A stretch of 64,000 nucleotides of DNA from an archaeon (GTDB taxonomy: Archaea; Nanobdellota; Nanobdellia; Woesearchaeales; UBA9642): assembly GCA_043806035.1 (NCBI GenBank), contig JAZDHK010000005.1, positions 2,136 through 66,135 on the forward strand. The letters are read 5' to 3'. How positions within the stretch are numbered: the first letter of the stretch is position 1; each line of letters opens with the position of its first letter. Shown here piece by piece: positions 1-18,707 of this stretch. The notes under the pieces are model-generated. The model was not told the origin of the DNA. It did no database searches and worked only from the letters and a program-made list of their open reading frames with translations. The translations under genes were made by a program, and so were the position numbers.

Positions 1-230
1 CGTATGCAGGTATCCTGCGCTTATTGTCGTGTACGCTGCGGTGTCGTTGATGAGCGTTGGCAGTGTGAGATTTCCTCCATCCGTGCCATTGCCTAATTGG
101 CCATACGAATTGTCTCCCCAGCACAATACTCTGCTGTCGTTTGTTCGAATGGCGCACGTGTGTCTTTCTCCCGACGTGAGAGTGTCTGGCCTGACGAGCA
201 TGCCGGTAATGTTTGCTGCGCCATCAATGT
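1..230 (-). repeat. RCC1-like beta-propeller block 4 (partial, first blades only; continues beyond the window)
   Basis: The translation ends ...GERHTCAIRTNDSRVLCWGDNSYGQLGNGTDGGN...AAYTTISAGY at nt 1. Confidence 0.6.
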
Positions 231-9200: not shown

Positions 9201-12200
9201 TCTGGACCCACGTTCCGACATCAGCACTTCTGCTGCAGGCAGCAGTTTCTTTCAGCCAATCACTCCCATTACCTATGCTGCCCTGAATGCTGCTTTTCAT
9301 TATTTTGAAGTTGAAAAGCTCGTCAGTGGCTCCAATGCGCGTACTCAGGACACAGTTATTGTCTCCGTCATTGTCGACGTTCACCCACGCGGCAACGGTA
9401 TAATTGCTCAACGCGAGAGAAGAGGAATACGGCACTTCCACATATTCTTCTCCGCTGAAGTTGTACGCTCCACCAAACTTCCCTCCAGTAATGTCCATAA
9501 CGGGGCAGGAATCACAGGTCGCATTATTATCATTGCCCGAATAGTCACGTGCAAACGTATCATTTTCTCCATACTCTGAGAGGTTATCGAAGTGCACCAG
9601 CAACACAGTGTTGTCGTCTGCAGCAATAGGCGCGGACGTCCAGGGATAAATGGACGTGGTGTTAGTAATACTCAGGTTATACCTGAGAACGCTGGTGTCG
9701 AGCTGGGAAGCGTTCATGCTGCCGAAGAAACGCACGGTCGAGGGAAGCGTGCCATTCACGCTGATGTTCAAGTTCACTGAGGAAACCGTGGCATCATTCG
9801 CTGGGCTGTTCACGGTGATGTACGGAGGAATTCTGTACCCGTAGTAGTGGTAGCCGATGTCGAGAGGAGAGAGATCTCCCGACATGCCGTCGGGGTTCGT
9901 GCCGTAACCTGAAGAAGCAAGCGGAGATCCGCCGTAATAGCTGCCTGCATTGATGATAGGAGAGGACTGGTTCAAGTAATGACTGTTGCCGTTCGCAGCA
10001 ACAAGCGGATTGTCCGTGAGGTTGATCTCGTTGCTGTACGTCTGGTTCGTGCAATTGTCTTCTGTCTGGTTGTAGTATCTGCACGCAACGTTATAGTGTG
10101 CGTTGTAATCATGGACGTATGTGTCGAGCACCTCTGAGTCGTTGAAGCTTATCGAGGTGTTCGTGTTCAGGAAAAGATTATTCGTTATGCTGTTTTGGGG
10201 ATAGTTTGCTGATCCTATTTCTTCTATCGCAACGCCGAGTATGCCATCAAACGTGTTTGAAGCTACAATGAACGCTTCATAGTTAATCTGTTTTCCTTTC
10301 AGGCCGTCCGTGCAGTTGATGATGAGATTTTTTTTGAATTCAGTGATTGTATTGAAGTTGATGTAGCCATCGTTCTCTTTGAAGATGTTGTCGTATATGA
10401 TCATGCCTGCTGTTGGACCGTCCAAATATGGCCTACCGGAAGCGTAACTGACCTGCATCCACTCAAAATGATACGTTGTGGTGCTGTTGATGCTTCCCCA
10501 GTCACCTTTGCTTGGCGTTGCATTGCTTCCTGAAATATTCGCCCCCACTGTATTGTCGTTGATGGAGGTGAAGTACGTCAGTGTGCTGCTCGAATAGGTG
10601 TAATTGAGATTTGCCACGTTGATGCTGCCGTTCCCTGCTGGCGTGCTTGCTGACTTCACGATGCTTCCTGCCAGCAGTGTCCAGTTGCTAACGTATAACG
10701 TGCAGCCTGTGCAGAGGAACAGCGTGTCATTCCTTCCATAATAGACGAGGTTACTGGGCATGATTCTGTTGTAGGTGGTCAGATTGATTTGGAAAGGATA
10801 TGCTGGCGTTGTCTGGTATGCAGAGCTGTTGATGTATGTGAAATTCTGTGCGGCAATGGTCATTCCTGTCGCAAGATTCCAACCCACATTCTCAATGGAT
10901 GTGTTGATGATGCTCAAGCGCGCTGTCTGGTCTGCGCTGATCTCGTACTTTGCCTCTGCAACATCTCCATTCGTGATGTTGCTCAGGTTGGTGCTGAGAT
11001 TTCCCGCATCCTGCACGATGATATTTGCACTGCCGTTCTCTGTCCCGTTCATGCGTATGGTCTCATTGTCCCAGATGACCGTGCCATTGATAGTGAGGTT
11101 GTCGTTGAACCAGAGCGTGCTTCCACCGTCTCGTGAGATGAAGATTGCACCATTTGCCACGCTGGTTGTCCCATTGACGCGCAGTGTGCTGTTCTGCAAG
11201 GTGAGATTGCCTGTTATGTTCAATACGTTAACCGTGAGGTTGGTGTTCGTGAGGTTGAGTGCCGCGTCCGAGGAAATGGTGAGCGCGTCCACTGCCAAAT
11301 TGCTGTCTGCGCAGTTCGTGGCTTGGCTGAGCGTCTCATTTCCTGATGGCGAAGTGCATGCTGTAGTCGACGATTGCCTGGCATCCTTCACCGTGCTGCC
11401 ATTCTGGTCTATAGCCCATGCTGTGTAGTTGTACGTTCTGGATGCTATGCCTAACGTAACGTCCGTGAAGTTGTTCTTTAACTGGTAGAGTCCGCTGTTG
11501 TACGAGGCGTTGATCTCCTGCCATGACAATGTCCTATTCCAGATCTTCAGTTCATCAATGCTGCCGTTGAACCCGCAACAGTATGACCCGCTGCCGATGG
11601 TCACCCAATTTGGGTTTGTTCGGGACAGGCTGCAGTTGCCGTTCGCCAATGAATCGTTGAGTTGGCCGTTGACGTACACTCGCATGGATGTGCTGTTGTA
11701 CGTGCCGCAGCCGTAATACCACGTATCTGCCAGAAGAATAGAGTCACTCAGTCCTACGCTGTATTCCGTGCCAGCTCTTTTGCAGCCGAAGATGAGACTA
11801 TTACTTTCTTGCCAGATGAGCTGGGTGAAGTTGTCATTGTCCCCGTGCCTGTCTCTCAACAGCACTTGTGTCGTGCCGAGACCATCGTCGGCTCGCTTGA
11901 ACCAAAGGCAAATAGTCATTTCAGTGTAGTCCTCGAGCAGGTTCTCGTTTGACGAGACGTTCAGATAGGACGCGTTTCCTCCAGTGAAGGTTACGCCCTG
12001 GCCGAATTTTCCTTCTCCTATCGGCGAAGGGGTCATGTTGGTGAACGTGGCATTGTATCCATATGTTGAGTTGTCGAACACATGCGTGTCGTTGTAGTAT
12101 TCGAACGAATAATAGGCGACGAGACTTCTGTTCCAGTCGAAGAACGCTGACGTGTTCAGCAAGGAGGTGATGGTTGCATTCAGGTATGCCCACGCGGTCG

Positions 12201-15200
12201 TTATGTTCTCTCCCACTTCTGGTGTCGGGTCTTCCCAAGTGATGTTTGGCAAGGCATAGTATGCTATGCTATAATTTTGGCCCCAGTTGCTGTTCCCTAC
12301 AGAGTCATTCCCTTCGCAATTCCAGGTGAAGCTGCCTTCGTACGGGAGGGTGACTGTCCAGTTCGTGCTGTTGCTCGTCCCCCCTACGCTGACGGTTGTG
12401 CGGCTGATGTTCCACCACATACCTTCCTCCCAGATTCTGGCGCTTGAAAGATAGGATCTTAATGTCTGCCAGTCGGTAGAGTTCCAGCATTGCCAATACG
12501 TATCTGTATTGTGCTGATCTGATTCAGCACGCAATTGCAGAGAAGTTTGGTCCCAGCACAATTGCGGTAGAGAGAGATTCATTGTGGCTTCATTATCCTT
12601 CACCTGCCAAAGACTGGTGGATTGTGCCCTGGCTGGCTTTGAGTAATTTACGTACATGTAGCCGGGCTCCTCCTCGTCAGGTAGGTAAGTTCCATACGAT
12701 TCGTAATTTCCATCGTTTAGATTACCTCCGTCCGTCCACATTCCTGTGAGTGCATATGCTCCCGTAGCCAAGCCGCCGCAACTCGTAAGGGTGTTCGCGC
12801 TTTCCTGGTAACACCATTCAGATATGTCCGCTGCGACATTATCTCCCGTGCTGTTCCACACGTACAATGTCACGTTGGCTATTCCTGCATTGTCCGTGAT
12901 GTTGCACGTGAACGTGTTGTCTGCGGTGATTGTGCGGGTCTGGTTGGCTGGACTCACGAGAGTTACTGTTGGAGGGGCACCGTCTATGGTGATCGTTTGC
13001 GTGCTCTTCGTCATGTTGCCGTTCTCATCGGTGGCCCATGCCGTGTAGCTGTACGTGCCGTTGTCAAGCTGAGTGAAGTTGTTCTCCAGCCTGAAGAGGC
13101 CATTGTTGTACGAGGCGTTGATTTCCTGCCAGGAAAGCACCCGTTGATGGATGCGTGCTTCGTCGACAATTCCTTTAAAGGGGTAGCCGCTGCTGCCAAT
13201 TTTTACTGATGAATTTGAAGGGTACAGGTCTGTCATTCCTGCTGTTGCTGTCTGCTTGTCGCCATTGATGTAGACACTGACGTTGTAGCTCTCATTGAGG
13301 GTGAACACGTAATGATACCACGTCCCTACCGTTGCAGAGGCATCTGATATGACGCCACTCATTGTACTTGTTGAATTCCTGAAAGCAACGTTGGTTTTAT
13401 TGTCTGAAGCTAGGCCGTAGATGAGCCAAGAATACCAGGGGGTTTCCGAATGCCACTTGCCAAAGATGTAACTCGCGGTGCCCGTCTCGTTCGGCAGTAC
13501 GTCGTATTTGAACCATATCTCTACAGTGAGCGGTGCAGTTATGAATGTGCCGTTCGCGCCGGCTGCGGACAATGTGGCGCCGGTGCTGAAGTTGAGTCCT
13601 TTGCCATATCGTCCTGTGCTGATGTTGCTCGTGGAGAGTCCTGCTCCAAATGTTGCAAAATAATTGTTGCTCGAATTATCAAGTATGCCTGACGTGTTGT
13701 AGTACTCGAAATTCCAGTACGCGCCTAACGTGTTGTTCCAGTCGAAGAATGCGGACGTGTTCAGGCTGGCGTTCACCGTTGCGTTCAAGTATGCCCAGTC
13801 ATTGGTTGTGGTTGCTCCATTTTCTGGCGTTGGATACTCCCACGTGATGTTTGGCGGATTATACGGTGGGCCTATGGTTGTTGCCGAGCTGTTCAGCCAG
13901 GTGCTGTTAGAGAAGCCATCCTGTGCCTGGCAGGAAAGGATCCAACTATCACCATTCGTTGTGTGGCGGTTGTGCTGCATGCTTACGAACACTTCCTGTC
14001 CTGACGGGAAGCCAGGCATGTAGCTTGACGTGCTATTGACATAGACCGGACTATTACGCTGTGTGTTCGTGCCATCGCCAAGTTCATAGTAGTAGTTTCC
14101 TCCCCAGCATTTCGCCGTGCCGTTCAGCAACACGCCGCAAGTAGAGAATGAGTTAAATGCTGCACTATTATCCCCGCCAGCGTCTACAATCACATATGAT
14201 GCCGTGTCATCAATGAGCACTGGGGAATCCCGCTCTGTAGCGTCACCATGACCTCCTTCACCCACATAGTCAATTCCCCAGCATAATACTCTGCTGTCGT
14301 TTGCTCGAATACCGCAAGCATCAGTTATGCTTACTGTTATCCATGAATAAGCAGCAGTGTCAGTCGTCTGTTTCGGATTAGGTTCATTGCCGGTAGCCGA
14401 TCCAATACCCACTTGTCCCATGCTGTTATCTCCCCAGCAGAGCACTCTCGAGTCGTTTGCTCGAATGCCACACGTCACGCCAATCCCGTTACTAAAACTT
14501 TCAATAGTTATCATGGAGTACGCACTCGTATCATTAATGAGTGTTGGATTGTTTTTTTGTGTTGTGCTGCCATCGCCAAGTTGGCCATTACCATTCAATC
14601 CCCAACATAATACTCTGCTGTCGTTTGCTCTGATGCCACACGTGCTGTCTCCACCGACAGAGATGCTCGAGAATGAAGACGTAGTGTTGATGAGTGTCGG
14701 ATTAATTCTATCTGTATCCTCAGTGCCGTCTCCCAATTGTCCGTAGGTGTTGCTTCCCCAGCAGAGCACTCGTGAATCGTTGGCTCGGATGCCGCACGTC
14801 GTGCCCCATGTGTTTGGAGCACTAGGCCATCCGCCCACACCAACTTGTGTATACGCTGCCGTGTCATTAATGAGCGTTGGATTGAGCTTGTCTGTTGTCG
14901 TGCCATCACCTAACTGTCCACGTTGATTGTCTCCCCAGCATAATACTCTGCTGTCGTTTGCTCGTATGGCGCAGGTGTGTACGTTGCTTGCCGAGACCAT
15001 GAGATACGCGCTCGTATCGTTGATGGGTATGGGATTGTGGCTGTTGCCTCCGGTGCTGCCGTTGCCAAGCTGGCCGTACGTGTTGTCTCCCCAACACAGA
15101 ATGTATGAGTCATTCGCACGAATGCCACACGTATGGACGCCTCCGGTCGTTATGGTGTTTGCTTTGAATAATCTGCCTGAGGTGTTGAGTACATCATTCC

Positions 15201-17964
15201 TGTACCATGTATAGTTGTAGATAACTTTTGGTTCTTCAGACGAGTTCGTCGTGCCGTTGCAGTAGCCGTAGAGGTCGTCGGTGTCGTTCGCTGTTGAATT
15301 GGGGTTGATCCTGCTCGTGCTCATGTTCGCTTGCGATGCATCATTGAACGCATATGCCGTCTCGTTCCCGAACGTGAATTGTTGTACGTGCTTGCCCGCA
15401 GTGTGCACCTTCACTGTCCACGTTGCCGTTTCATTGCACGAATAGTCCTCGTACAGGTACGAGATGTGTTCGCTTCTGTTCGAGAAATCAGCGACGGGCA
15501 TCGTTTCTGTTTCCGTGACGTAGTAGGAATGCTCGGTGCGGTTCTCTGCCTTGCTGAACAGCGTCGCGTTGCCGCATGCGAGTGAGAGTATTTCGAGATC
15601 GTCTTCCGTTTCAGGATTATCATTGCCCTCCTCCAGATACGTGGTGCCGTTGATAGCTGCAATGCTCAAGTTACCCTCTCCTGACGTGTTGATGCTGACC
15701 TGCCACAGCCCTCCCACATACGGGTAGCTCTGCACGTTGAGGATGGTAATGCTAACTTCGTACGTCTGGTTGCTCAGCGAAGGAGTAATCCATGAGATGT
15801 AGTCAATCAACCCGTTGTTGTTCTCATCATAATACGAAACGCCCTCCACCTTTACTCGGGTATTGTTCACGAGCCAGTAGAGCGTGATGCTCTCCCGTCT
15901 CACATCTGGAATTGCCGTGTACGTGAAGATGTCCGTGTAGTGCACGTCTGAAGAAACCACGACTTGTTTCCTTCCTTGCACGAATGCTGTTTCCGTGCTT
16001 GTTGGCCCTTCCGTGTAGTATTCTACCTGGATGTGCTGGGCCTCTTCGTGAACGGTAATAGTTATGCTGTCGCTTGTATCCACTCGTGTTTCCTGTTCGG
16101 GAACGGAGAAGTCAGCAATCACATTGCCCGTGATGAGACCGTCCTCTGCAGATTCGGCAGGCGGAGCGCCTTCTCTCGTTATTTTCTCTTCAGGAATTTC
16201 TACTACTGTATTGTTGGTGATCTCTTTCGCAGAGAGATTGTATGCGAGCACAGGGATGGTGGTGGTGAAGTTCTGCACTATCTCCTCTGCCCGTATGTCT
16301 TCCACCCAGCGTACTGGTTTGTTGATGATGACCATTCTCGTGAGGTTGCGCAGGAAACTCGGCAGCGTCGCATTCGTTCTGTTCTGCGTGATGTTAATCA
16401 GGAAAACGTTGCTCTTCACGAGCGATTCGCCGTCAGTAGCATAGATGAACGTTGCATACTCCCCCTCCCGTCCAGAGAATGAGATAGATTCTCCGTGTAC
16501 CTCGACAGTGAGGTCTGTGCTCTTGGTGCTGAACACTAGCGGATCATGATCGGGGTCGAGGAAGTGCGTGCTGGCGTTGATGGTCAGTGTTTCATTCTCC
16601 TCGAGCGTGTAGTTGCCGACTTGTGCGATTTGCTCTGGCTCTCTGTTTCCTGCCGTGTAGGTGATGCTGTCGATGGTGATGCTGCCCTCTACCTCGATGT
16701 ACAGGAGTGCCTTGTCCAACATCAGACTGCATGCCTGGCCGCACACATTGTCAAAGGAGAACGGCACGAGTTCTGAAACATTGGTTGCATTGCTTACGTT
16801 CGTGCTCAGGTTCTGCTCAAGCTGGGTGATATTCTCTACGAGGGTTTCGTTCTTGATGAGCGTCTCATTCTCAACTTCGCTGCCAATCGTCACGTTTTCA
16901 GGCACGGTCTCGTTCAGCGTTGCGTTTGCGTCTGTGGTCTCATTCGGGATCAGTGTGGTGTTCTCCGTGATAGCTGTGGTGTTCTCTGGGATGATGGTTG
17001 CATTCTCTGCAGTTGCATTCACCAATTCATTCGCTGTTTCATTCATGCTTTCGTTCAACGTTGCATTCAAGGGATGCTCTTGCGTCTCATTCTGTGTCTC
17101 GTCAATGATGGGCTGGCTGATGTTTTCTTCAGTGAGGTTTTCTGCTAGCTCAAGGGGAGTCTCTGGCATGTCCTGCTCGGAAGATGGTTCTGTGCTGTTT
17201 TCGGAAACGTTGTCAGAGACGATTTCTTCAACAATCATTTCATCTGTGTGTGTGTCAAAAGAAGTATTGAGAGCAGTGTCTGCTGGTGTTTCTTGAAGTG
17301 GTGTTTCGGGAATTTGCTCTGCTGGTGTGCTTTCTTCCTGGACTGGCGGTTGCGTTGTTTCCTCGATGACGTCTTGAGGGACAGGTTCTGGTGCAGTGGC
17401 GGTTGTTATTTCTTCCGGCGGCAGTTCTTGCTCAGGAGGCGTTTCTTCAATGACTCTTCCCGTCAGTAAGTTCTGCTCGTTCTTCTGTTCTGTCGTGAAG
17501 AGCAACATGCGCTCTCCATCGGTGAGCAAGTAAATGCGTGCAGTGCCCTGGCCGTGTCCGGTGATGTGTAGTCCGCTGACGTTCGTGAGTCCAGTGTCAT
17601 ACGCAGTGTTCTCAGTGAATGTCTTGTTGATGAACAAGATTTTTTCTTGCGCAAACGTGAGCTTGCCGGTGATGCCCGCATAGTTGATCATGCCGACGAG
17701 GAGCAGGCCGAAGAGCAGGACGGTTATGGCAAGAAGCGGTGTGTGCCTGCTTTCAGTTCTTGGCTGACGCTTGAGATGCCTGATCTCTTCTTCTACTTCC
17801 TTGTAGTATTGTGTCTCTGGTTTGCCGTTGAAGAGCTTGTCGATGTGCTCTTGATAGTCCTGATAGGATATCTTTCGTTCATTGAGCAACTTGTTGAGTT
17901 TGCTCTGTACATGCAAGGTCTTTTCCTTTAGCTGTTCAAGCTTTCGTGCTCTACTTGCGTGCAT
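1..17964 (-). CDS. Giant membrane-anchored cell-surface or adhesin-like protein, partial (at least 5988 aa in window; the 3' end lies beyond the window start). Domain order: N-terminal ~75-aa charged/coiled segment, one TM helix, acidic NxS/T-rich linker, four 7-bladed RCC1-like beta-propellers, at least five LamG/ConA-like lectin domains, two parallel beta-helix (PbH1) regions, and recurring Ig-like 'SPANQTNTT..CNITDD..WNS' and 'SAFFDWNN' modules.
   Basis: Manual reverse-strand translation from ATG (plus-strand 'cat') at 17962-17964 gives MHASRARKLEQLKEK...HTPLLAITVLLFGLLLVGMINYAGI (TM). It continues in one frame with no stop down to nt 1. The ORF track lists no minus-strand ORF of at least 60 aa beginning near 17964, which is expected because the track appears to list only ORFs that end in a stop inside the window. 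Repeats such as HTCGIRANDSRVLCWGDNxxGQLGDG (RCC1 blades) and DExRIxxRxLSxxEInASYNnG (LamG C-terminus) are plainly readable. The plus-strand 'MAIRIVSPAQYSAVV...' ORFs are their antisense shadows. An in-frame TAG sits 22 codons upstream of the ATG. Confidence 0.85.
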   Translation of the reverse strand, partial: MHASRARKLEQLKEKTLHVQSKLNKLLNERKISYQDYQEHIDKLFNGKPETQYYKEVEEEIRHLKRQPRTESRHTPLLAITVLLFGLLLVGMINYAGITGKLTFAQEKILFINKTFTENTAYDTGLTNVSGLHITGHGQGTARIYLLTDGERMLLFTTEQKNEQNLLTGRVIEETPPEQELPPEEITTATAPEPVPQDVIEETTQPPVQEESTPAEQIPETPLQETPADTALNTSFDTHTDEMIVEEIVSDNVSENSTEPSSEQDMPETPLELAENLTEENISQPIIDETQNETQEHPLNATLNESMNETANELVNATAENATIIPENTTAITENTTLIPNETTDANATLNETVPENVTIGSEVENETLIKNETLVENITQLEQNLSTNVSNATNVSELVPFSFDNVCGQACSLMLDKALLYIEVEGSITIDSITYTAGNREPEQIAQVGNYTLEENETLTINASTHFLDPDHDPLVFSTKSTDLTVEVHGESISFSGREGEYATFIYATDGESLVKSNVFLINITQNRTNATLPSFLRNLTRMVIINKPVRWVEDIRAEEIVQNFTTTIPVLAYNLSAKEITNNTVVEIPEEKITREGAPPAESAEDGLITGNVIADFSVPEQETRVDTSDSITITVHEEAQHIQVEYYTEGPTSTETAFVQGRKQVVVSSDVHYTDIFTYTAIPDVRRESITLYWLVNNTRVKVEGVSYYDENNNGLIDYISWITPSLSNQTYEVSITILNVQSYPYVGGLWQVSINTSGEGNLSIAAINGTTYLEEGNDNPETEDDLEILSLACGNATLFSKAENRTEHSYYVTETETMPVADFSNRSEHISYLYEDYSCNETATWTVKVHTAGKHVQQFTFGNETAYAFNDASQANMSTSRINPNSTANDTDDLYGYCNGTTNSSEEPKVIYNYTWYRNDVLNTSGRLFKANTITTGGVHTCGIRANDSYILCWGDNTYGQLGNGSTGGNSHNPIPINDTSAYLMVSASNVHTCAIRANDSRVLCWGDNQRGQLGDGTTTDKLNPTLINDTAAYTQVGVGGWPSAPNTWGTTCGIRANDSRVLCWGSNTYGQLGDGTEDTDRINPTLINTTSSFSSISVGGDSTCGIRANDSRVLCWGLNGNGQLGDGSTTQKNNPTLINDTSAYSMITIESFSNGIGVTCGIRANDSRVLCWGDNSMGQVGIGSATGNEPNPKQTTDTAAYSWITVSITDACGIRANDSRVLCWGIDYVGEGGHGDATERDSPVLIDDTASYVIVDAGGDNSAAFNSFSTCGVLLNGTAKCWGGNYYYELGDGTNTQRNSPVYVNSTSSYMPGFPSGQEVFVSMQHNRHTTNGDSWILSCQAQDGFSNSTWLNSSATTIGPPYNPPNITWEYPTPENGATTTNDWAYLNATVNASLNTSAFFDWNNTLGAYWNFEYYNTSGILDNSSNNYFATFGAGLSTSNISTGRYGKGLNFSTGATLSAAGANGTFITAPLTVEIWFKYDVLPNETGTASYIFGKWHSETPWYSWLIYGLASDNKTNVAFRNSTSTMSGVISDASATVGTWYHYVFTLNESYNVSVYINGDKQTATAGMTDLYPSNSSVKIGSSGYPFKGIVDEARIHQRVLSWQEINASYNNGLFRLENNFTQLDNGTYSYTAWATDENGNMTKSTQTITIDGAPPTVTLVSPANQTRTITADNTFTCNITDNAGIANVTLYVWNSTGDNVAADISEWCYQESANTLTSCGGLATGAYALTGMWTDGGNLNDGNYESYGTYLPDEEEPGYMYVNYSKPARAQSTSLWQVKDNEATMNLSLPQLCWDQTSLQLRAESDQHNTDTYWQCWNSTDWQTLRSYLSSARIWEEGMWWNISRTTVSVGGTSNSTNWTVTLPYEGSFTWNCEGNDSVGNSNWGQNYSIAYYALPNITWEDPTPEVGENITTAWAYLNATITSLLNTSAFFDWNRSLVAYYSFEYYNDTHVFDNSTYGYNATFTNMTPSPIGEGKFGQGVTFTGGNASYLNVSSNENLLEDYTEMTICLWFKRADDGLGTTQVLLRDRHGDNDNFTQLIWQESNSLIFGCKRAGTEYSVGLSDSILLADTWYYGCGTYNSTSMRVYVNGQLNDSLANGNCSLSRTNPNWVTIGSGSYCCGFNGSIDELKIWNRTLSWQEINASYNSGLYQLKNNFTDVTLGIASRTYNYTAWAIDQNGSTVKDARQSSTTACTSPSGNETLSQATNCADSNLAVDALTISSDAALNLTNTNLTVNVLNITGNLTLQNSTLRVNGTTSVANGAIFISRDGGSTLWFNDNLTINGTVIWDNETIRMNGTENGSANIIVQDAGNLSTNLSNITNGDVAEAKYEISADQTARLSIINTSIENVGWNLATGMTIAAQNFTYINSSAYQTTPAYPFQINLTTYNRIMPSNLVYYGRNDTLFLCTGCTLYVSNWTLLAGSIVKSASTPAGNGSINVANLNYTYSSSTLTYFTSINDNTVGANISGSNATPSKGDWGSINSTTTYHFEWMQVSYASGRPYLDGPTAGMIIYDNIFKENDGYINFNTITEFKKNLIINCTDGLKGKQINYEAFIVASNTFDGILGVAIEEIGSANYPQNSITNNLFLNTNTSISFNDSEVLDTYVHDYNAHYNVACRYYNQTEDNCTNQTYSNEINLTDNPLVAANGNSHYLNQSSPIINAGSYYGGSPLASSGYGTNPDGMSGDLSPLDIGYHYYGYRIPPYITVNSPANDATVSSVNLNISVNGTLPSTVRFFGSMNASQLDTSVLRYNLSITNTTSIYPWTSAPIAADDNTVLLVHFDNLSEYGENDTFARDYSGNDNNATCDSCPVMDITGGKFGGAYNFSGEEYVEVPYSSSLALSNYTVAAWVNVDNDGDNNCVLSTRIGATDELFNFKIMKSSIQGSIGNGSDWLKETAACSRSADVGTWVQIVYVVHDGGYEIYVNGLRCDSGEFEGVPLLIAATNNLTIGECLDGSEFMSGSIDDVAVWDRNLSAEEVYYLYTMRNGAYYWMATANDSQLQNATGTYNFTLNASPNIVVSLDSPADASTNVKFTGDAASPFSCTAATAYSTVNDITLYAGTVGWQNVSYQSVSGFSANTTADFSNNINPVGLLMDKALSLGCYATNNASQSNWSTNKTVSGFSLGNFSQGTTLNGIANITIDDTRQAAINNGQTTFLQYFDYGPGDDFRANSGEVANYDGFSASLTYESMNGTAFLGCSNLCELRYPDSKNMDYGTVTFWFRKSYSGTGAFTLLQIYGSSIYHLTLSDINPSIMYAANVTLRHFKTVQTITANSGIASSGWHMYAVVWNKSLSDGEITLYRDGSKLVNSSGDLFPGADIGTLSVNISIGANMSLVNDAAGYYDEIAIYDAAYSSSVISQLYTNQSHTRFGNYSSQVFDIGSNASVWYTLSAATNDVGNITFQARNCDDAACNGENFTGPSGSNSTYYTDLTGQELNASTSRYFQYKAFFGREITSSSQPELYAVNITYLANDSVNCTPLSYGFNVLSTCSFSDQALIINGSLDIGSTGYLNLSNVTLIVNGNTRVRNGGTFKTVNGGSTIWQNGNLTINGTYILNRETLRMNGSSDGTYGITVQGSGTFNVSNSSNITNGETSTADYAFVVQSGATFNVQDSLISRAGYSDTTGSKGLEISAANAILARCNLSYIKSGIHLLGGSANLTGNNISMTTESYTGTMYGIDVTGGSATIQNNYISTDLNQTTHLLEVASNSNTFRNNTLAGVNSTILAFIPSRQHNTFDDMTGIITNNVAGTCIYSSAATNNTFTNFSFTDCNASRMLYLTGSGNYNLTLINPIGYNTSNITFSSAGATKLYVKWFADLFVGKLSGTAVSGATVLAYDNSYALFMNTTTDASGLITGQSFYEYSQNSTQVYPDNVTYFTNYSFIASRAGYATTHNKTWNLTQSQIGTGRINLSIVGCGDTITTDTNFTGNLSNDTGLGCPAGGITVTSGAAVDCNNYWIYGGDQGTGTGILADGASSLTNCNVYGFNRSVIVHDFGTTISGGTFKGGTTNQTRGLSFDGDVGALTVQHVTITNSSEYGVYLEGVPSQDYTFNNITIENNSGTGVYYDDSTGYVIGITINNSRIRYNYNGIVLKLADENYMSYVVQSNITNNTFNIVYPLSSTNDQNLTFLNNNVFGGTYDWIMSGTTKDQNATSNWWGTTNENTIAAQILDYSDSPVVGRVIYCPYLTSAYPGASLSTDDASQCTCDETVGSTACNGASCYILNSTSFSWDIMSQSDGTYNSNCCGDDSTEFYAQASSSGLPGFTNTTSACCNITNSCVFDRSCYENDTIPLDVDENSNLDYCLEGTWHDCFNDSQCDEGYFCSNNDCISYPEMNGSRINPTPTADTLLNLFGYCNASHTANLKVLYNYTWYNNTIIYQNALFKAETISAGRMHTCGIRANDSRVLCWGDNANGQIGDGDAPNDKLNPTLTADDSAYSTISSGDYHTCGIRANDSRVLCWGDNDNGQLGNGNTTNMWTPTPINDTTPYISIYGGRVHTCAIRNDSRVLCWGQNNVGQAGDGTTDTPKTNPTLINDSGAYMSVSAGYIHSCGIRANDSRVLCWGHNTNGQLGDGTQTQRENPTPINDTAGYRLVSTGGGDFGRHTCGIRANDSRVLCWGNNTEGALGDGTTTQRLNPTLINDTSAYTDVNAGWQHTCGIRANDSMALCWGKNDNGAVGDGSQTDRLNPALINDTATYRYITAGAHYSCGVRANDGQALCWGYNNWGQLGIGDTTQKLNPTTITDASSYFPGFPAGKEVLVGVIGSAFTETGENWTLSCSASDQNSQVTSWLNSSSTLITEDIAPVVHLVSPANQTNTTNDSYALACNITDDYQVKALTVYVWNSSGTLQTNVTTLAGVSNSTSWSYAFPHPDVFTWNCLGNDSFDNTAWSSEGNYTINYTPITVISVRISPALFANHTDNLLGYCNATHPTGGKVMYNYTWYNDSTAFMNGVVFKAGTLSAGTYHTCGIRANDSQVLCWGSNLWGMLGNGSDGGTSPNPIPINDSANYTAISAGYTHTCGIRANDSQVLCWGYNPYGALGDGTDTQHKNPWPINDTAYSLVGAGNYHTCGIRANDSKALCWGRNNYGMLGNGNTTNMYNPTLINDTAAYITITAAIEYTCGIRTNDSRVLCWGRNGNGQLGDGTQTNHYNPAPINDSAAYLSVSAGEYHACGILINGSVKCWGANSDGATGNGSTGGNALNPQLINDSAAYLTVSAGYGHTCAVRANDSQIMCWGSNGYGRLGNGSSGGTNPNPAPINDSAAYLSVSARAYRSCGIRTNDSQVLCWGVNDYGQLGNGNTTSMYNPTPINNTASFYPGWPSAQELLVSTLGNAFTSLGENWTLSCMATNTTLTSRWLNSSVTHILDQVAPTLAIQKNSSILEAGSESIYINWSATDGTGISDVVFNITYPDGSLLFSSSTAVSNVTLTFLNLTQLGQYNLTLWANDTSNNSNTANTSFSVNHTLPPVITWENPTPPDNELTTATYAYLNTTITDYSNTSAFFDWNNTLGAYWNFDAVNDTTVYDNSTGQKNLTNSTGSGFSFSAGKFGNSLWFSNGGEATNVTYDVAIANYTPYVTVPFTLEFWIYWNITPNASAEQAYPIMLMNSPSSWTWLIYGVTATNVTAFGVKNSSNDATYTNAGVCPAQTWCHIAFTINASGTLKGYRDGNLITTTTLPGAMIYNQTTNLRLGSYWSGGGGFNGSLDELRIYARELSWEEINASYNNTEFTLYHNFTNLEYGNQTYTAYAIDTAGHLSTSTRSVSILNLTLKVQLVSPANQTNTTQPTHAFMCNITDDTDSSALTLSIWNSTNDLITTNATAVGGIINSTNWTFTLPYADTYTWNCLGNDSDSNEEWSDEGNYTLTYIKPTMISASIIPTPSANNSDTLYGYCNATDPFEEKLVYNYTWYIDGAANITGMLVRPDTLTSGERHTCAIRTNDSRVLCWGDNSYGQLGNGTDGGNLTLPTLINDTAAYTTISAGYLHT
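2000..3075 (-). repeat. RCC1-like beta-propeller block 3 (7 blades)
   Basis: The run TCGIRANDSQVLCWGSN ... SCGIRTNDSQVLCWGVNDYGQLGNG was read directly. Coordinates are approximate. Confidence 0.7.
3700..4790 (-). repeat. RCC1-like beta-propeller block 2 (7 blades)
   Basis: The run HTCGIRANDSRVLCWGDNANGQIGDG ... SCGVRANDGQALCWGYNNWGQLGIG was read directly. The plus-strand shadow 'MAIIIVSPAEYSAVV' (4540..4725) is its antisense. Coordinates are approximate. Confidence 0.7.
14020..15190 (-). repeat. RCC1-like beta-propeller block 1 (7 blades: CGIRANDSRVLCWGxN...GQLGDG)
   Basis: Seven consecutive repeats of about 50 aa read in the translation. Plus-strand shadows include 14357..14746 and 14927..15214. 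Coordinates are approximate to about 50 nt. Confidence 0.7.
16810..17470 (-). repeat. Low-complexity acidic E/T/P/N-rich linker, dense in N-glycosylation sequons (NET/NAT/NES/NVS...)
   Basis: The translation reads EETPPEQELPPEEITTATAPEPVPQDV...NATLNESMNETANELVNATAENATIIPENTTAITENTTLIPNETTDANATLNETVPENVT. It is a stalk-like region between the TM anchor and the first globular domains. Confidence 0.6.
17670..17739 (-). other. Predicted single transmembrane helix (LLAITVLLFGLLLVGMINYAGI) anchoring the giant protein, N-terminus in the cytoplasm
   Basis: A hydrophobic stretch of about 23 residues follows a K/R/E-rich N-terminus. Everything downstream is NxS/T-rich and therefore predicted to be extracellular. 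Confidence 0.6.
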
Positions 17965-18187
17965 GTTCCCTCTTTCTTCTGGAACGTTGATAGACTGTCC
18001 AGATGGTCCGTTCGTTTCTGTTGAGGAGAATGGCTATTTCCTTGTACGTGTAGCCTCGCTTGTCCTTGAGAAATTCGACTATTGCCTCAAGCACTTTGAG
18101 GGTTCGGTCCTGGAAGATGTAGGAGGGGAAATTGACGTAGTCCGGGAGTTCTTTTTTTCGCTGTTCGTTACTGTCTTTTGTCGTCAC
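17951..18187 (-). CDS. Small HTH DNA-binding protein (LuxR/GerE- or sigma-70 region-4-like helix-turn-helix), 78 aa. Its last 14 nt overlap the start codon of the giant gene.
   Basis: ORF track protein MTTKDSNEQRKKELP...LKVLEAIVEFLKDKRGYTYKEIAILLNRNERTIWTVYQRSRRKREHARK. Its TAG stop at 17951-53 lies out of frame inside the first codons of the giant ORF (ATG 17964). A TATA-like box sits at 18231-18238 upstream. Confidence 0.6.
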   Translation of the reverse strand: MTTKDSNEQRKKELPDYVNFPSYIFQDRTLKVLEAIVEFLKDKRGYTYKEIAILLNRNERTIWTVYQRSRRKREHARK

Positions 18188-18214
18188 ACGCTCAGGCTAC
18201 ACTCATTTTTCTCG

Positions 18215-18226
18215 TACATTGTAAGT
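18215..18226. promoter_or_regulatory. Copy 1 of the 12-mer TACATTGTAAGT, lying between the TATA box (18231-38) and the HTH start codon (18187). Candidate operator.
   Basis: Exact 12-mer, repeated at 18291-18302 (direct) and 18332-18343 (inverted). Confidence 0.45.
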
Positions 18227-18290
18227 ATCATTTATAAAGTTTTCTTGTCTAATTATAGAGAAAAATGTGTGTATGAGCACAATTATATTT

Positions 18291-18302
18291 TACATTGTAA
18301 GT
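18291..18302. promoter_or_regulatory. Copy 2 of TACATTGTAAGT (direct orientation)
   Basis: Exact match. It forms an inverted-repeat pair with copy 3, separated by 29 bp. Confidence 0.4.
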
Positions 18303-18331
18303 GAAGATTAAGATAACATAAAGGAAAAGAT

Positions 18332-18343
18332 ACTTACAATGTA
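18332..18343. promoter_or_regulatory. Copy 3 of TACATTGTAAGT (inverted: ACTTACAATGTA)
   Basis: Exact reverse complement of the 12-mer. Confidence 0.4.
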
Positions 18344-18443
18344 GGTATTCTTTTTTTATTTTTCCGTCGCATCCACCTTTCCATATTGGTGAAGAAAACA
18401 CGAGAAAAATGGTTTAAATCTCCGTGCAAGCACAGCAGAAAGT

Positions 18444-18474: not shown

Positions 18475-18589
18475 GCCTCCGTAGCTTAACGGTGGAGCGT
18501 GCGGCTGTTATCCTTGCTGCGTTTGCACAAAAAAAAACACGGCAGGGCAAGTGACCGCAAGGTCACCGGTTCGAACCCGGTCGGAGGCG
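18475..18589 (+). tRNA. tRNA-Asn (anticodon GTT) containing an intron of about 43 nt at the canonical 37/38 position. The intron includes a 9-A run.
   Basis: Hand-folded cloverleaf. Acceptor GCCTCCG/CGGAGGC, D-arm GCT-TAACGGTGG-AGC, anticodon stem TGCGG/CCGCA with loop CTGTTAT, T-arm ACCGG-TTCGAAC-CCGGT, discriminator G. The antisense ORF 18356..18550 is a shadow. Confidence 0.7.
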
Positions 18590-18603: not shown

Positions 18604-18707
18604 GAGCCCGTAGCTTAGCCTGGTGGAGCATCCGACTGATAAAAACGGCCGGTAAACTGGTCGATTGTCGTTTCGGAAGGTCGCGAGTTCAAATCTCGCC
18701 GGGCTCA
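18604..18707 (+). tRNA. tRNA-Ile (anticodon GAT) containing an intron of about 30 nt
   Basis: Acceptor GAGCCCG/CGGGCTC plus A, anticodon stem TCCGA/TCGGA with loop CTGATAA, T-arm GCGAG-TTCAAAT-CTCGC. The antisense ORF 18508..18708 begins 'MSPARFELATF', the classic tRNA antisense translation. Confidence 0.7.

What the first reader, a model, noticed from the sequence alone, without database searches (positions are those of the whole stretch)
17951..18350. HTH gene overlapping the giant-gene start, with a triple TACATTGTAAGT motif in its promoter
The 78-aa HTH ORF ends 14 nt inside the giant ORF, which suggests the two are co-transcribed or translationally coupled. Its upstream region holds three exact copies of a 12-mer. 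Copy one sits between the TATA box and the start codon. Copies two and three form an inverted pair 29 bp apart. This looks like an autoregulatory operator set controlling expression of the giant surface protein.
Basis: seen in the sequence. Interest (0 to 1): 0.6.

Follow-up and report, generated by a model that had tools for sequence, protein, structure and literature searches.

The report
Self-regulating switch before a giant surface-protein gene
A tiny DNA-binding protein gene sits directly in front of a giant surface-protein gene in a DPANN-type archaeon, and its promoter carries three copies of a 19-bp palindrome that recurs at the same promoter position in about 60 related species, so this is very probably a conserved self-regulating switch for the giant-protein operon.

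Summary

- **Repeat unit.** The 12-mer is part of a 19-bp palindrome, ATACTTACA-W-TGTAAGTAT. The three best matches to it in the whole 64-kb window are the three reported copies.
- **HTH family.** The 78-aa protein belongs to a large, unnamed family with a sigma-factor region-4-like fold (about 2,100 cluster representatives). It occurs in Woesearchaeota/Nanoarchaeota-type genomes and was not found in viral contigs.
- **Motif conservation.** In 64 of 90 loci the palindrome lies within 500 bp upstream of the HTH gene, usually in 2-6 copies. It is over 100 times denser there than in the flanks.
- **Promoter position.** The proximal copy starts 1-5 nt after the TATA box. That places it between the TATA box and the inferred transcription start.
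- **Downstream gene.** In 76 of 90 loci a same-strand gene for a membrane-anchored, often giant, protein follows, usually overlapping by 4 nt.

Most likely mechanism (inferred, not shown): HTH dimers bind the palindromes and repress their own HTH/giant-protein operon.

In sister lineages, arrays of the same HTH domain are fused to the C-terminus of giant surface proteins, just after a short hydrophobic stretch and a polybasic run. This hints at coupling between surface protein and gene expression.

I rate it a new member of a known kind, of moderately high interest.

The parts
17951..18187 (-). 78-aa HTH gene (GTG start). The conserved core is residues 21-72. The recognition helix carries NRNERTIWTVYQR.
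   Evidence: ORF. Pfam HTH_23 scores 25.8 bits (cut-off 24.6) and Sigma70_r4_2 scores 23.6 (cut-off 25.7). The AlphaFold model has pLDDT 86 with helices at 32-42, 48-54 and 59-77. The best Foldseek PDB matches are ECF sigma region 4 domains. Conservation is shown.
1..17964 (-). Giant ORF of at least 5,988 aa, cut by the window's left end. It has a ~75-aa cytoplasmic coiled-coil N-domain, one TM helix (residues ~75-95), then a region rich in N-x-S/T sequons with Laminin_G_3 and RCC1 beta-propeller domains.
   Evidence: Open frame and start codon. TM position and sequon density (5.8 per 100 aa). Pfam: Laminin_G_3 1.7e-66, RCC1 7.9e-96, RCC1-like domain 2.2e-130.
17951..17964 (-). 14-nt overlap between the end of the HTH gene and the start of the giant gene.
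   Evidence: A same-strand partner starting 1-59 nt inside the HTH ORF's end is found in most of 76 related loci, and -4 nt is the commonest offset (35 loci).
17968..17972 (-). Shine-Dalgarno-like GAGGG, 3 nt upstream of the giant gene's ATG, inside the codons for the HTH protein's basic C-terminal tail.
   Evidence: Sequence. Relatives have purine-rich stretches at the same place. The function is inferred.
18210..18228 (.). O1, the promoter-proximal site. In gene sense it reads ATACTTACAATGTACGAGA. The TATA-side half is perfect and the other half is degenerate. It starts 2 nt after the TATA box.
   Evidence: 14.5 bits, second best in the window. Conserved in the closest relatives L003 and L004. 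The same register is seen across the family.
18231..18245 (-). Archaeal core promoter of the HTH gene: TATA box TTTATAAA (18231-18238) and purine-rich BRE-like AGAAAAC (18239-18245).
   Evidence: Sequence. A TATA-like 8-mer lies in the 30 nt upstream of the proximal site in 48 of 61 non-identical related promoters, and its end is 1-5 nt from the site in 39 of those 48. The promoter role is inferred from archaeal promoter architecture.
18205..18209 (-). Predicted transcription start region, about 26-27 nt downstream of the TATA centre.
   Evidence: This is an inference only. It is supported by the fact that in 30 of 56 related loci scored the first in-frame start codon lies within 12 nt of the proximal site's 3' end, which suggests leaderless or short-leader mRNAs.
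18266..18274 (-). Extra degenerate half-site ATACACACA, centred 51 bp upstream of the centre of O1.
   Evidence: Half-site scan, 7.6 bits. Weak evidence.
18286..18304 (.). O2. In gene sense it reads TCACTTACAATGTAAAATA: one good half-site plus the core of the other half.
   Evidence: 7.2 bits, third best in the window. A site is present at a similar place in L003 and L004.
18330..18348 (.). O3, a near-perfect 19-bp palindrome ATACTTACAATGTAGGTAT. It is the strongest site, 120 bp upstream of O1 (centre to centre).
   Evidence: 27.9 bits, best in the window. It is an invariant block in the three-way alignment with L003 and L004, while the surrounding DNA has diverged.

Best explanation
The 78-aa protein is a minimal DNA-binding regulator with a sigma-factor region-4-like fold. 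It most likely binds as a dimer, one domain per ATACTTACA half-site, to the 19-bp palindrome ATACTTACA-W-TGTAAGTAT.

Three such sites lie in its own promoter. O1 fills the space between the TATA box and the transcription start. O2 and O3 lie 76 and 120 bp further upstream.

The HTH gene and the overlapping giant surface-protein gene form one transcription unit, so occupancy of these sites sets the level of both products.

The most likely sign is negative autoregulation. A dimer on O1 would leave TBP and TFB access to the TATA box but block recruitment of RNA polymerase. The strong distal site O3 would help load the weaker O1 and O2 cooperatively.

Shown here: the anatomy, the fold prediction, family-wide conservation of motif, register and gene pair, and near-exclusive association of the motif with this gene.

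Inferred: binding of the protein to the motif, dimer stoichiometry, the transcription start, co-transcription, and repression rather than activation.
For: **Specificity of the motif for this gene**
- The core TACANTGTA is 121-fold denser in the 350 bp upstream of HTH homologues than in 1.17 Mb of flanks.
- A weight matrix at 12 bits or more finds 196 sites in 43 kb upstream against 6 in 1.16 Mb elsewhere. 64 of 90 loci have at least one site and 60 have at least two.
- The top-enriched 7-mers found without any prior are all pieces of the palindrome: GTAAGTA in 60 of 86 loci (2.3 expected) and ACTTACA in 64 of 86 (3.8 expected).
- Reverse test: of 88 evaluable perfect palindromes found in metagenome contigs, 49 are followed by an HTH-family gene, at a median of 118 bp.

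**Promoter position**
- The proximal site starts 1-5 nt after a TATA-like 8-mer in 39 of the 48 promoters that have one (61 examined).
- Start codons often follow within 12 nt.
- Only the sites and the TATA region are conserved in the alignment with the nearest relatives.

**Dimer logic**
- The site is a palindrome.
- 22 of 90 loci, and most of the top profile hits, encode two fused HTH domains that face the same palindromes.
- The two-domain model has pTM 0.81, which indicates a fixed mutual arrangement.

**Direct read-out**
- The recognition helix NR(N/D)(D/E)RT[IV]WT is nearly invariant where the motif is invariant.
- The only two loci with half-site ATACATACA (L042, L083) have RN[IV]WT instead.

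**Fold and precedent**
- The best PDB matches are sigma-4 domains, including sigmaE region 4 bound to -35 DNA.
- EnfR, an archaeal regulator with a sigma-4-like HTH, is a dimer that binds a pseudo-palindrome at a TATA region and represses (PMC10570040).

**Operon**
- The overlapping same-strand partner is conserved.
Against: - No experiment or transcript data are available. Binding, the transcription start and the operon structure are not shown.
- O1 and O2 in the window are only half-palindromic (14.5 and 7.2 bits).
- 26 of 90 related loci have no site at 12 bits or more. Many of these HTH genes have coding DNA directly upstream, and two carry a variant motif.
- 38 of 88 evaluable perfect palindromes in metagenomes have no HTH gene nearby. 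The motif is therefore not exclusive to this promoter, and another factor could read it.
- The covariation rests on a single lineage.
- The weight matrix was trained on the upstream regions, so its enrichment figure is inflated. The core-regex and 7-mer tests do not share this bias.
- Sites upstream of the BRE, such as O2 and O3, are typical of archaeal activators, so the sign is uncertain.
Confidence: 0.7

Rival explanations
1. The binding partner and sites are the same, but the protein activates its own operon or acts both ways. Dimers on O2 and O3 upstream of the BRE would recruit TBP/TFB. This would be positive autoregulation, as with bacterial ECF sigma factors or archaeal Ptr2-type activators.
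For: The fold is that of ECF sigma region 4, whose genes are typically positively autoregulated (the autoregulation point is general knowledge). Most loci carry 1-5 further sites upstream of the TATA box, with preferred spacings of 42, 57, 21 and 36 bp. In the window the strongest site is the distal one.
Against: The one position that is conserved across the family is the site between the TATA box and the start. In characterised archaeal regulators this is a repressor position (general knowledge; also stated in PMC10570040). Archaea lack sigma-dependent RNA polymerase.
Confidence: 0.2
2. The palindrome is read by a different factor or is a special core-promoter element. The HTH protein merely shares that promoter type and has another target or role.
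For: 38 of 88 evaluable perfect palindromes in metagenome contigs lack a neighbouring HTH gene. Several of these sit before other genes of AT-rich, DPANN-like contigs: large membrane-anchored proteins (L107, L134, L137, L154, L203) and a 350-aa unknown protein with two sites (L103, L145, L148, L172).
Against: The motif and the HTH gene co-occur in 64 of 90 species-level loci. The motif is almost absent from 1.16 Mb of their flanks. The palindrome matches the one-domain (dimer) and two-domain architectures. Helix and half-site covary in L042 and L083. Sites at other promoters are what a small regulon of the same protein would look like.
Confidence: 0.07
3. The inverted copies are recombination sites of an invertible promoter, that is, a phase-variation switch for the surface protein.
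For: Inverted repeats lie upstream of a surface-protein gene. The HTH_23 model belongs to a group of HTH domains that also occur in transposases and resolvases.
Against: The protein has 78 aa and no catalytic domain. Each copy is itself palindromic, so it has no orientation. Copy number varies from 1 to 6 with helical phasing. The proximal copy is fixed next to the TATA box. Three independent assemblies of one relative (L004-L006) show the same orientation.
Confidence: 0.02
4. The three copies are a chance repeat, or a dispersed mobile repeat unrelated to promoters.
For: With two mismatches allowed, the 12-mer has 6 matches in the window against 3.3 expected.
Against: There are three exact copies against none in 100 shuffles. 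No other site in the window scores above 5.4 bits. The motif is conserved at the orthologous place in dozens of species.
Confidence: 0.01

Closest known systems
EnfR (TON_1525) / Tfx-family archaeal regulators (PDB 8HNP; PMC10570040)
   Same: It is an archaeal regulator whose HTH resembles sigma-70 region 4. It is a dimer, binds a pseudo-palindrome that overlaps the TATA region of its target promoter, and represses. Foldseek aligns 48 residues of the model to 8hnp at rmsd 0.7 and 31% identity.
   Different: EnfR has about 140 aa, with an additional alpha+beta 'note-head' domain that makes the dimer. Its site is 36 bp. The window protein has 78 aa and only the HTH core plus a short conserved N-terminal IPSYIF segment. 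No Tfx-specific Pfam match was seen. It belongs to DPANN-type genomes and is tied to surface-protein genes.
Bacterial ECF sigma factor / anti-sigma gene pairs
   Same: The fold of the DNA-binding domain matches: the top PDB matches are SigR, SigH, SigE, SigD, SigW and SigL region 4, several of them in complex with anti-sigma factors. The gene layout also matches: the small regulator gene comes first, it overlaps by a few nt a gene for a single-pass membrane protein with a ~75-90-aa cytoplasmic N-domain and a variable outside part, and the regulator's sites lie in its own promoter.
   Different: There is no sigma region 2, so it cannot be a sigma factor. The host is an archaeon with TBP/TFB-type promoters. 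The sites are palindromes, which points to dimer binding rather than -35/-10 elements. Nearly half of the partners (34 of 76) lack the cytoplasmic N-domain. No anti-sigma Pfam domain was found in the N-domain.
Archaeal repressors that bind between the TATA box and the start site (MDR1, Phr, LrpA, NrpR class; general knowledge)
   Same: The operator is palindromic and lies just downstream of the TATA box, over the start region. The regulator gene is autoregulated.
   Different: Those proteins have other folds (DtxR, winged helix, Lrp/AsnC). None is linked to giant surface proteins.
Giant membrane-anchored surface proteins of DPANN archaea (SPEARE-type proteins of Nanohaloarchaeota; PMC10266531)
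   Same: The regulated gene encodes a very large, membrane-anchored, adhesin-like protein of a DPANN-type archaeon.
   Different: The nanohaloarchaeal proteins carry Ig-like and VirB4/TraG-like ATPase domains. The passages I retrieved from that paper by term search mention no dedicated regulator. Here the domains are Laminin_G_3 and RCC1.

Membership tests
Pfam HTH_23 (PF13384) | Score at or above the curated gathering cut-off | tested here: met
   25.8 bits against a cut-off of 24.6, residues 36-72. The margin is small.
Pfam Sigma70_r4_2 (PF08281) | Score at or above the curated gathering cut-off | tested here: not met
   23.6 bits against a cut-off of 25.7. Several homologues carry a weak precomputed hit.
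Sigma-70 region 4 fold | The 3D structure superposes on solved sigma-4 domains | tested here: met
   The model has pLDDT 86. Foldseek's top 30 matches are almost all ECF sigma-4 domains: TM 0.55-0.62 normalised on the query, rmsd 2.1 over 56 columns to sigmaE-r4/DNA 2h27, probability about 1 but E only 0.01-0.3. The best PDB sequence hit is sigma-H 3mzy at E 0.023.
ECF (group 4) sigma factor | Has a sigma region 2 domain as well as region 4 | tested here: not met
   The protein has 78 aa and a single domain. There is no Sigma70_r2 hit, and NCBIfam sigma models score 13-17 bits against cut-offs of 130-320.
ECF (group 4) sigma factor | Works with bacterial core RNA polymerase | not testable with these tools
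   The window is archaeal: it has intron-containing tRNAs and BRE/TATA promoters. The relatives' record titles name archaeal groups.
Tfx / EnfR family | N-terminal sigma-4-like HTH | tested here: met
   8hnp aligns over 48 columns at rmsd 0.7 and 31% identity.
Tfx / EnfR family | C-terminal acidic alpha+beta domain that forms the dimer | tested here: not met
   The protein ends 6 residues after the last conserved family position (K72); the model is helical to residue 77 and shows no further domain, and Pfam finds none.
Autoregulated archaeal promoter-occluding repressor (functional class) | Operator between the TATA box and the transcription start of its own gene | tested here: met
   O1 starts 2 nt after the TATA box. 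The same register holds in 39 of the 48 related promoters that have a TATA-like 8-mer (61 examined). The start site itself is inferred.
Autoregulated archaeal promoter-occluding repressor (functional class) | The protein binds the operator and lowers transcription | not testable with these tools
   This needs gel shift or footprinting and in vitro transcription.
Invertible promoter switch | A site-specific recombinase is encoded at the locus | tested here: not met
   There is no recombinase domain in the HTH protein. The region's only other features are two tRNA genes and guaA.
Dispersed repeat / MITE | Many copies spread over the genome irrespective of gene context | tested here: not met
   There are no further copies in the 64 kb. 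Only 6 sites occur in 1.16 Mb of relatives' flanks.

The most novel reading that the evidence does not exclude
The HTH protein and the giant surface protein may form a surface-to-gene signalling module, not just a regulator and its target.

In sister lineages, 2 or 4 copies of the same HTH domain are fused to the extreme C-terminus of giant surface proteins of up to 5,919 aa. In 14 of 15 cases by the automatic measure, and in the 15th by eye, the array comes right after a short hydrophobic stretch and a polybasic run. This would place a DNA-binding array on the cytoplasmic tail of an adhesin, that is, a membrane-tethered transcription factor.

In the window-type arrangement the free HTH is encoded just upstream of a partner with a conserved ~75-90-aa cytoplasmic N-domain. 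In some genomes that N-domain survives as a separate 167-197-aa membrane protein. It could hold the regulator at the membrane, much as an anti-sigma factor does.

Host contact, or the assembly state of the giant protein, would then feed back on transcription. This would be an archaeal counterpart of ECF sigma/anti-sigma or Notch-like signalling.
Probability: 0.2. Interest if true: 0.85.

Novelty: new member of a known kind. Interest (0 to 1): 0.62.

Why it matters
DPANN archaea are thought to depend on contact with host cells, and giant surface proteins are the prime candidates for making that contact. The sources I searched describe no regulator for such genes: full-text searches for the motif found no paper, and neither Pfam nor NCBIfam has a dedicated family model.

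This finding provides a small, easily purified 78-aa protein and a precise 19-bp operator that is nearly invariant across many uncultured species. It also provides a conserved promoter architecture. Together these make the regulation of these genes directly testable in vitro.

It gives genome annotators a simple marker (HTH gene plus palindrome) for surface-protein operons. The fused forms raise the possibility of membrane-tethered transcription factors in archaea.

Tried and rejected
- ARAGORN missed the two neighbouring tRNA genes. Rfam found them, and both are longer than the 71-position model, consistent with introns.
- The sigma-70 promoter and terminator scan is not meaningful for an archaeon and gave nothing useful.
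- The 12-mer search with two mismatches was uninformative: 6 matches against 3.3 expected.
- I suspected that the partner's cytoplasmic N-domain is SHOCT-like. Pfam gave no SHOCT, anti-sigma or any other significant hit for six N-domains, so that label is dropped.
- Pfam found nothing for ten proteins encoded next to palindromes that lack an HTH gene.
- No relatives were found in viral contigs.
- A family-wide asymmetry of the proximal site (good TATA-side half, poor start-side half) was tested and not found (Wilcoxon p = 0.84). It is a feature of the window's sub-clade only.
- The two contexts fetched for fused giant::HTH proteins (L210, L211) hold no site above 4.1 bits. The palindrome therefore cannot be extended to that sub-family.
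- Full-length unfused partners do not end in the hydrophobic stretch plus polybasic pattern.
- The two-domain model has no PDB counterpart that covers both domains.
- Literature searches for the motif and for DPANN regulators of giant proteins found nothing relevant.
- The window's own protein could not be looked up by the look-up of encoding contigs.

Full report
**1. What is in the window**

On the minus strand an ORF runs from GTG 18187 to the TAG stop at 17953-17951, giving 78 aa. NCBI annotates the identical protein as MFH1173690.1, 'helix-turn-helix domain-containing protein [archaeon]'.

A second minus-strand frame is open from 18033 down to base 1 and leaves the window. Its first start codon is ATG 17964-17962, with GAGGG three nt upstream. 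The window therefore holds at least 5,988 aa of it. The two ORFs overlap by 14 nt (17951-17964).

The giant product begins with about 75 aa of charged, coiled-coil-like sequence. One hydrophobic helix follows, and then a long region rich in N-x-S/T sequons with Laminin_G_3 and RCC1 beta-propeller domains. 'Membrane-anchored giant surface protein' is a fair description.

Upstream of the HTH gene, on the other strand, lie two tRNA genes at 18475-18589 and 18604-18707. Rfam finds them but ARAGORN does not, and each is 33-44 nt longer than the 71-position model. Together with the BRE/TATA-type promoters, this marks the DNA as archaeal.

**2. The repeat**

TACATTGTAAGT occurs exactly three times, at the stated coordinates. 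None of 100 dinucleotide-preserving shuffles produced any match.

Reading the flanks shows that each copy is the core of a longer imperfect palindrome with consensus ATACTTACA-W-TGTAAGTAT.
- O3 (18330-18348) is ATACTTACAATGTAGGTAT, one mismatch from perfect symmetry.
- O1 (18210-18228) and O2 (18286-18304) each have one good half-site plus the TGTA core of the other half.

With a weight matrix built from relatives, the three sites score 27.9, 14.5 and 7.2 bits. These are the three highest scores in the 64 kb; the next is 5.4. Site centres are 76 bp apart (O1-O2) and 44 bp apart (O2-O3).

In gene sense the promoter reads AGAAAAC-TTTATAAA-TG-ATACTTACAATGTACGAGA. That is a BRE-like purine run, a TATA box (18231-18238), two nt, then O1.

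**3. The protein**

Pfam gives marginal hits: HTH_23 at 25.8 bits (cut-off 24.6) and Sigma70_r4_2 at 23.6 bits (cut-off 25.7). NCBIfam gives only far-sub-threshold sigma-factor C-terminal hits.

An AlphaFold model built on 124 sequences has pLDDT 86. It shows a disordered N-terminus of about 20 residues and helices at 32-42, 48-54 and 59-77.

Foldseek against the PDB returns almost only region 4 domains of ECF sigma factors. These include SigR, SigH, sigmaE-r4 on -35 DNA, and SigD4, SigL4 and SigW with their anti-sigma factors. Further down the list is EnfR, an archaeal regulator with a sigma-4-like HTH.

Sequence search of the PDB gives nothing better than sigma-H at E 0.023. The fold is thus sigma-4-like. 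The protein cannot be a sigma factor, because it has no region 2 and lives in an archaeon.

**4. Conservation of the gene**

- A single-sequence search found 7 proteins.
- A profile search found 1,069.
- An exhaustive profile search of 1.84 billion cluster representatives found 2,145 at E ≤ 0.001, of which 1,851 are at ≤ 1e-10.
- A scan of one genome per GTDB species found 277 loci. The 80 kept come from records titled Woesearchaeota, Nanoarchaeota, Nanoarchaeia or 'archaeon'. A further 26 are third-party assemblies titled 'uncultured Methanosarcinales', a label I could not verify.
- None was found in viral contigs.

The conserved core is IPS(Y/F)IF-DR-L-(V)LE-IVE(F/Y)LK ... (S/T)Y(H/K)EIA-LLNR(N/D)(D/E)RT(I/V)WT-Y-R--KKR.

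**5. Conservation of the motif**

All nine loci of the close homologues carry between one and four copies of the same palindrome upstream, most of them 2-4, one of them directly after a TATA box. The rest of the intergenic DNA has diverged.

Over 90 loci (the window plus 89):
- The core TACANTGTA, defined from the window alone, occurs 137 times in 38.9 kb of upstream DNA and 34 times in 1.17 Mb elsewhere. That is 3.5 against 0.029 per kb.
- A 7-mer count with no prior puts pieces of the palindrome at the top: GTAAGTA in 60 of 86 loci (2.3 expected) and ACTTACA in 64 of 86 (3.8 expected).
- The weight matrix at 12 bits finds 196 upstream sites against 6 elsewhere. 64 loci have at least one site and 60 have at least two. 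This matrix was trained on the upstream regions, so the figure is inflated; the two tests above are not.

Of the 26 loci without a site, many have coding DNA directly upstream of the HTH gene, which suggests it sits inside a longer operon. In a few I had anchored on the second domain of a two-domain protein. L020 and L023 carry a variant, TACTTCTTCTGTAAGTA.

**6. Register and spacing**

In 48 of 61 non-identical promoters a TATA-like 8-mer lies within 30 nt upstream of the proximal site. In 39 of those 48 the gap is 1-5 nt, with a mode of 3.

In 30 of the 56 loci scored, the first in-frame start codon lies within 12 nt of the site's 3' end. This fits leaderless or short-leader mRNAs and a start point at the edge of the palindrome. 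If the TATA centre lies at about -26/-27, as in characterised archaeal promoters (general knowledge), the site covers roughly -20 to -2.

Further sites lie upstream at preferred centre-to-centre distances of 42 bp (16 cases), 57 bp (8), and 21 and 36 bp (6 each). In several loci the -42 site abuts the BRE, so the TATA box is sandwiched between two palindromes.

**7. Who binds the motif?**

No tool can show binding. Four observations point to the HTH protein itself.
1. The gene and the motif co-occur (section 5).
2. The reverse test holds. Of 120 metagenome stretches with a perfect 19-mer, 88 have enough flanking DNA to judge, and 49 of these have an HTH-family gene starting a median of 118 bp downstream.
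3. A palindrome fits a dimer, and the family supplies covalent 'dimers'. 22 of 90 loci, and most top profile hits, encode two fused domains in front of the same palindromes. The two-domain model has pTM 0.81.
4. The recognition helix RT[IV]WT is almost invariant. The only two loci whose half-site is ATACATACA (L042, L083) have RN[IV]WT. This is one lineage, so it is suggestive only.

**8. Other places with the motif**

38 of the 88 evaluable perfect palindromes have no HTH gene nearby.
- Some are clearly unrelated: L092 is a 58% GC contig with the site next to a gene I did not identify, and several others lie inside coding DNA.
- Others lie in AT-rich, DPANN-like contigs before large membrane-anchored proteins (L107, L134, L137, L154, L203), before a 350-aa unknown protein with two sites (L103, L145, L148, L172), or before probable aminoacyl-tRNA synthetase genes (L098, L113; my reading of the N-terminal sequence).

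Pfam gave no significant hit for any of the ten proteins I submitted from these loci. This fits a small regulon beyond the regulator's own operon, but it also keeps alive the rival that another factor reads the site. In the window itself there is no further site.

**9. The downstream gene**

- In 76 of 90 loci a same-strand ORF of at least 100 aa starts within -59 to +48 nt of the HTH stop. Most of these overlap, and -4 nt is the commonest offset (35 loci).
- 71 of the 76 have a TM segment near the N-terminus.
- 35 are at least 1,000 aa long, and 36 are cut off by the end of the locus.
- 37 partners have a cytoplasmic N-domain of 45 aa or more that aligns with the window's. It is a coiled coil followed by a K-I-S-x-x-(D/E)-Y-type motif, the TM helix and an ITG motif. 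It has no Pfam match.
- 34 partners have only an N-terminal anchor.
- In some genomes the N-domain plus TM is a separate gene of 167-197 aa. In four loci (L051, L055, L057, L062) a gene of ~680-840 aa follows (681 aa in L055 is a minimum: cut by the locus end).

The HTH/surface-protein pair is thus a conserved cassette. The overlap, and the purine-rich codons of the HTH tail just before the partner's start, suggest coupled translation. That last point is an inference.

**10. Mechanism**

The best-supported reading is that HTH dimers bind the palindromes, and that the site between the TATA box and the start blocks recruitment of RNA polymerase. Characterised archaeal repressors work this way (general knowledge).

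EnfR is the closest precedent. It is a dimeric regulator with a sigma-4-like HTH, it binds a pseudo-palindrome at a TATA region, and it represses (PMC10570040).

In the window the strong distal O3 and the weak O1 and O2 suggest cooperative filling as the protein level rises. This would hold the HTH and giant-protein levels steady.

Activation from the upstream sites cannot be excluded. I put about 0.7 on 'cognate autoregulatory operator set of the HTH/giant operon'. Within that, I put roughly 0.55-0.6 on repression.

**11. An unexpected extension**

Among the best 150 representatives of the exhaustive search, 71 have two domains in a protein of 100-200 aa, 40 have four in a protein of 200-400 aa, and 15 are large proteins of 779-5,919 aa with 2 or 4 HTH domains at the extreme C-terminus.

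In 14 of the 15 the array follows a short hydrophobic stretch (for example WTIRILMVALAF) and a run of 5-10 Lys/Arg by the automatic measure. The fifteenth, P0128, shows the same pattern by eye.

Seven of the eight with a TM segment near the N-terminus start with the same kind of coiled-coil N-domain and a TM at about residue 85-98 as the window's giant protein.

If the hydrophobic stretch spans the membrane, both ends are cytoplasmic and the DNA-binding array is tethered to the tail of a giant adhesin. The stretch is short for a TM helix, so this is a prediction.

The two genomic contexts I could fetch hold no ATACTTACA-type site. In these arrays the recognition helices alternate between RT[IV]WT-type and RN[IV]WT-type variants, with substitutions in some copies. 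Their target sequence may therefore differ.

These fusions show a functional link between this HTH domain and giant surface proteins at the protein level. They motivate the signalling reading given as the novel case.

**12. Comparison and novelty**

The system works like an autoregulated archaeal repressor with a palindromic operator. In gene layout it resembles an ECF sigma/anti-sigma pair.

It is not a member of either the sigma or the Tfx/EnfR family, because defining domains are absent (see the membership tests). No dedicated family model exists in Pfam or NCBIfam, and no paper in the searched library holds the motif.

I therefore class it as a new member of a known kind. It is an undescribed regulator family with its operator, notable for the near-invariance of the operator across many species and for its tie to giant surface proteins.

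**13. Limits**

- Everything about function is inferred from sequence.
- The related loci were selected by similarity to the HTH protein and are phylogenetically related, so counts of loci are not independent events.
- Only 64 kb of the source genome could be scanned.
- The giant ORF's C-terminus lies outside the window.

Noticed in passing
window 18475-18589 and 18604-18707 (+): Two tRNA genes, each 33-44 nt longer than the 71-position Rfam model (consistent with introns), are transcribed divergently from the HTH gene. Rfam finds them at 53.6 and 58 bits but ARAGORN misses them. A divergent tRNA is also present next to the HTH gene in the closest relatives L003-L005.
   Followed up: partly
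window 18192-18206 (-): A 4-codon mini-ORF (ATG AGT GTA GCC TGA) starts 4 nt after O1, at the position where many relatives have the HTH start codon. It ends 4 nt before the GTG start of the HTH ORF and is in another frame. It may be a leaderless upstream ORF with re-initiation, or a trace of a frameshift.
   Followed up: no
proteins P0126-P0128, P0132, P0135, P0145, P0150, P0151, P0153, P0165, P0167, P0171, P0234, P0244, P0247; loci L210, L211: These are natural fusions. In giant surface proteins of up to 5,919 aa, 2 or 4 copies of this HTH domain form the extreme C-terminus, right after a short hydrophobic stretch and a polybasic run. They may be membrane-tethered transcription factors.
   Followed up: partly
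one search list (for example P0125, 307 aa; 40 representatives of 200-400 aa): Free-standing proteins made of four tandem HTH domains are common in the family, besides the one- and two-domain forms. They could span two neighbouring palindromes, which would fit the 21- and 42-bp site spacings.
   Followed up: no
L007 335-495, L008: The whole promoter unit (AAAACCTTTAAATACTAATACT[CT]ACAATGTAAGTA) is tandemly repeated three times upstream of the HTH gene in L007 and twice in L008, with a period of 66-71 bp.
   Followed up: no
L103, L145, L148, L172: Two perfect or near-perfect palindromes lie upstream of a conserved 350-367-aa protein of unknown function (MQNIPREKILEALKDGPTLPIKIAKQVGGD...). There is no HTH-family gene nearby and no Pfam hit. 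It is a candidate further target of the regulator.
   Followed up: partly
L020, L023 (upstream of the HTH gene): A variant repeat TACTTCTTCTGTAAGTA keeps the outer arms of the palindrome but replaces the ACAWTGT core. It occurs in a sub-clade whose partners are 560-640-aa proteins.
   Followed up: no
L078 10180, L144 2458-2492: In these two loci the palindrome lies just downstream of the HTH gene, in front of the next gene, rather than upstream.
   Followed up: no
window 22001-23000: G+C drops to 0.39, against about 0.50 elsewhere, inside the 1,031-aa ORF at 21227-24322 (+).
   Followed up: no
window 1-17964 (-): The giant ORF combines at least five Laminin_G_3 stretches with long arrays of RCC1 beta-propeller repeats. 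The contig is 71,448 bp against a 64,000-bp window, so up to about 7 kb more of the gene may exist beyond the window.
   Followed up: partly
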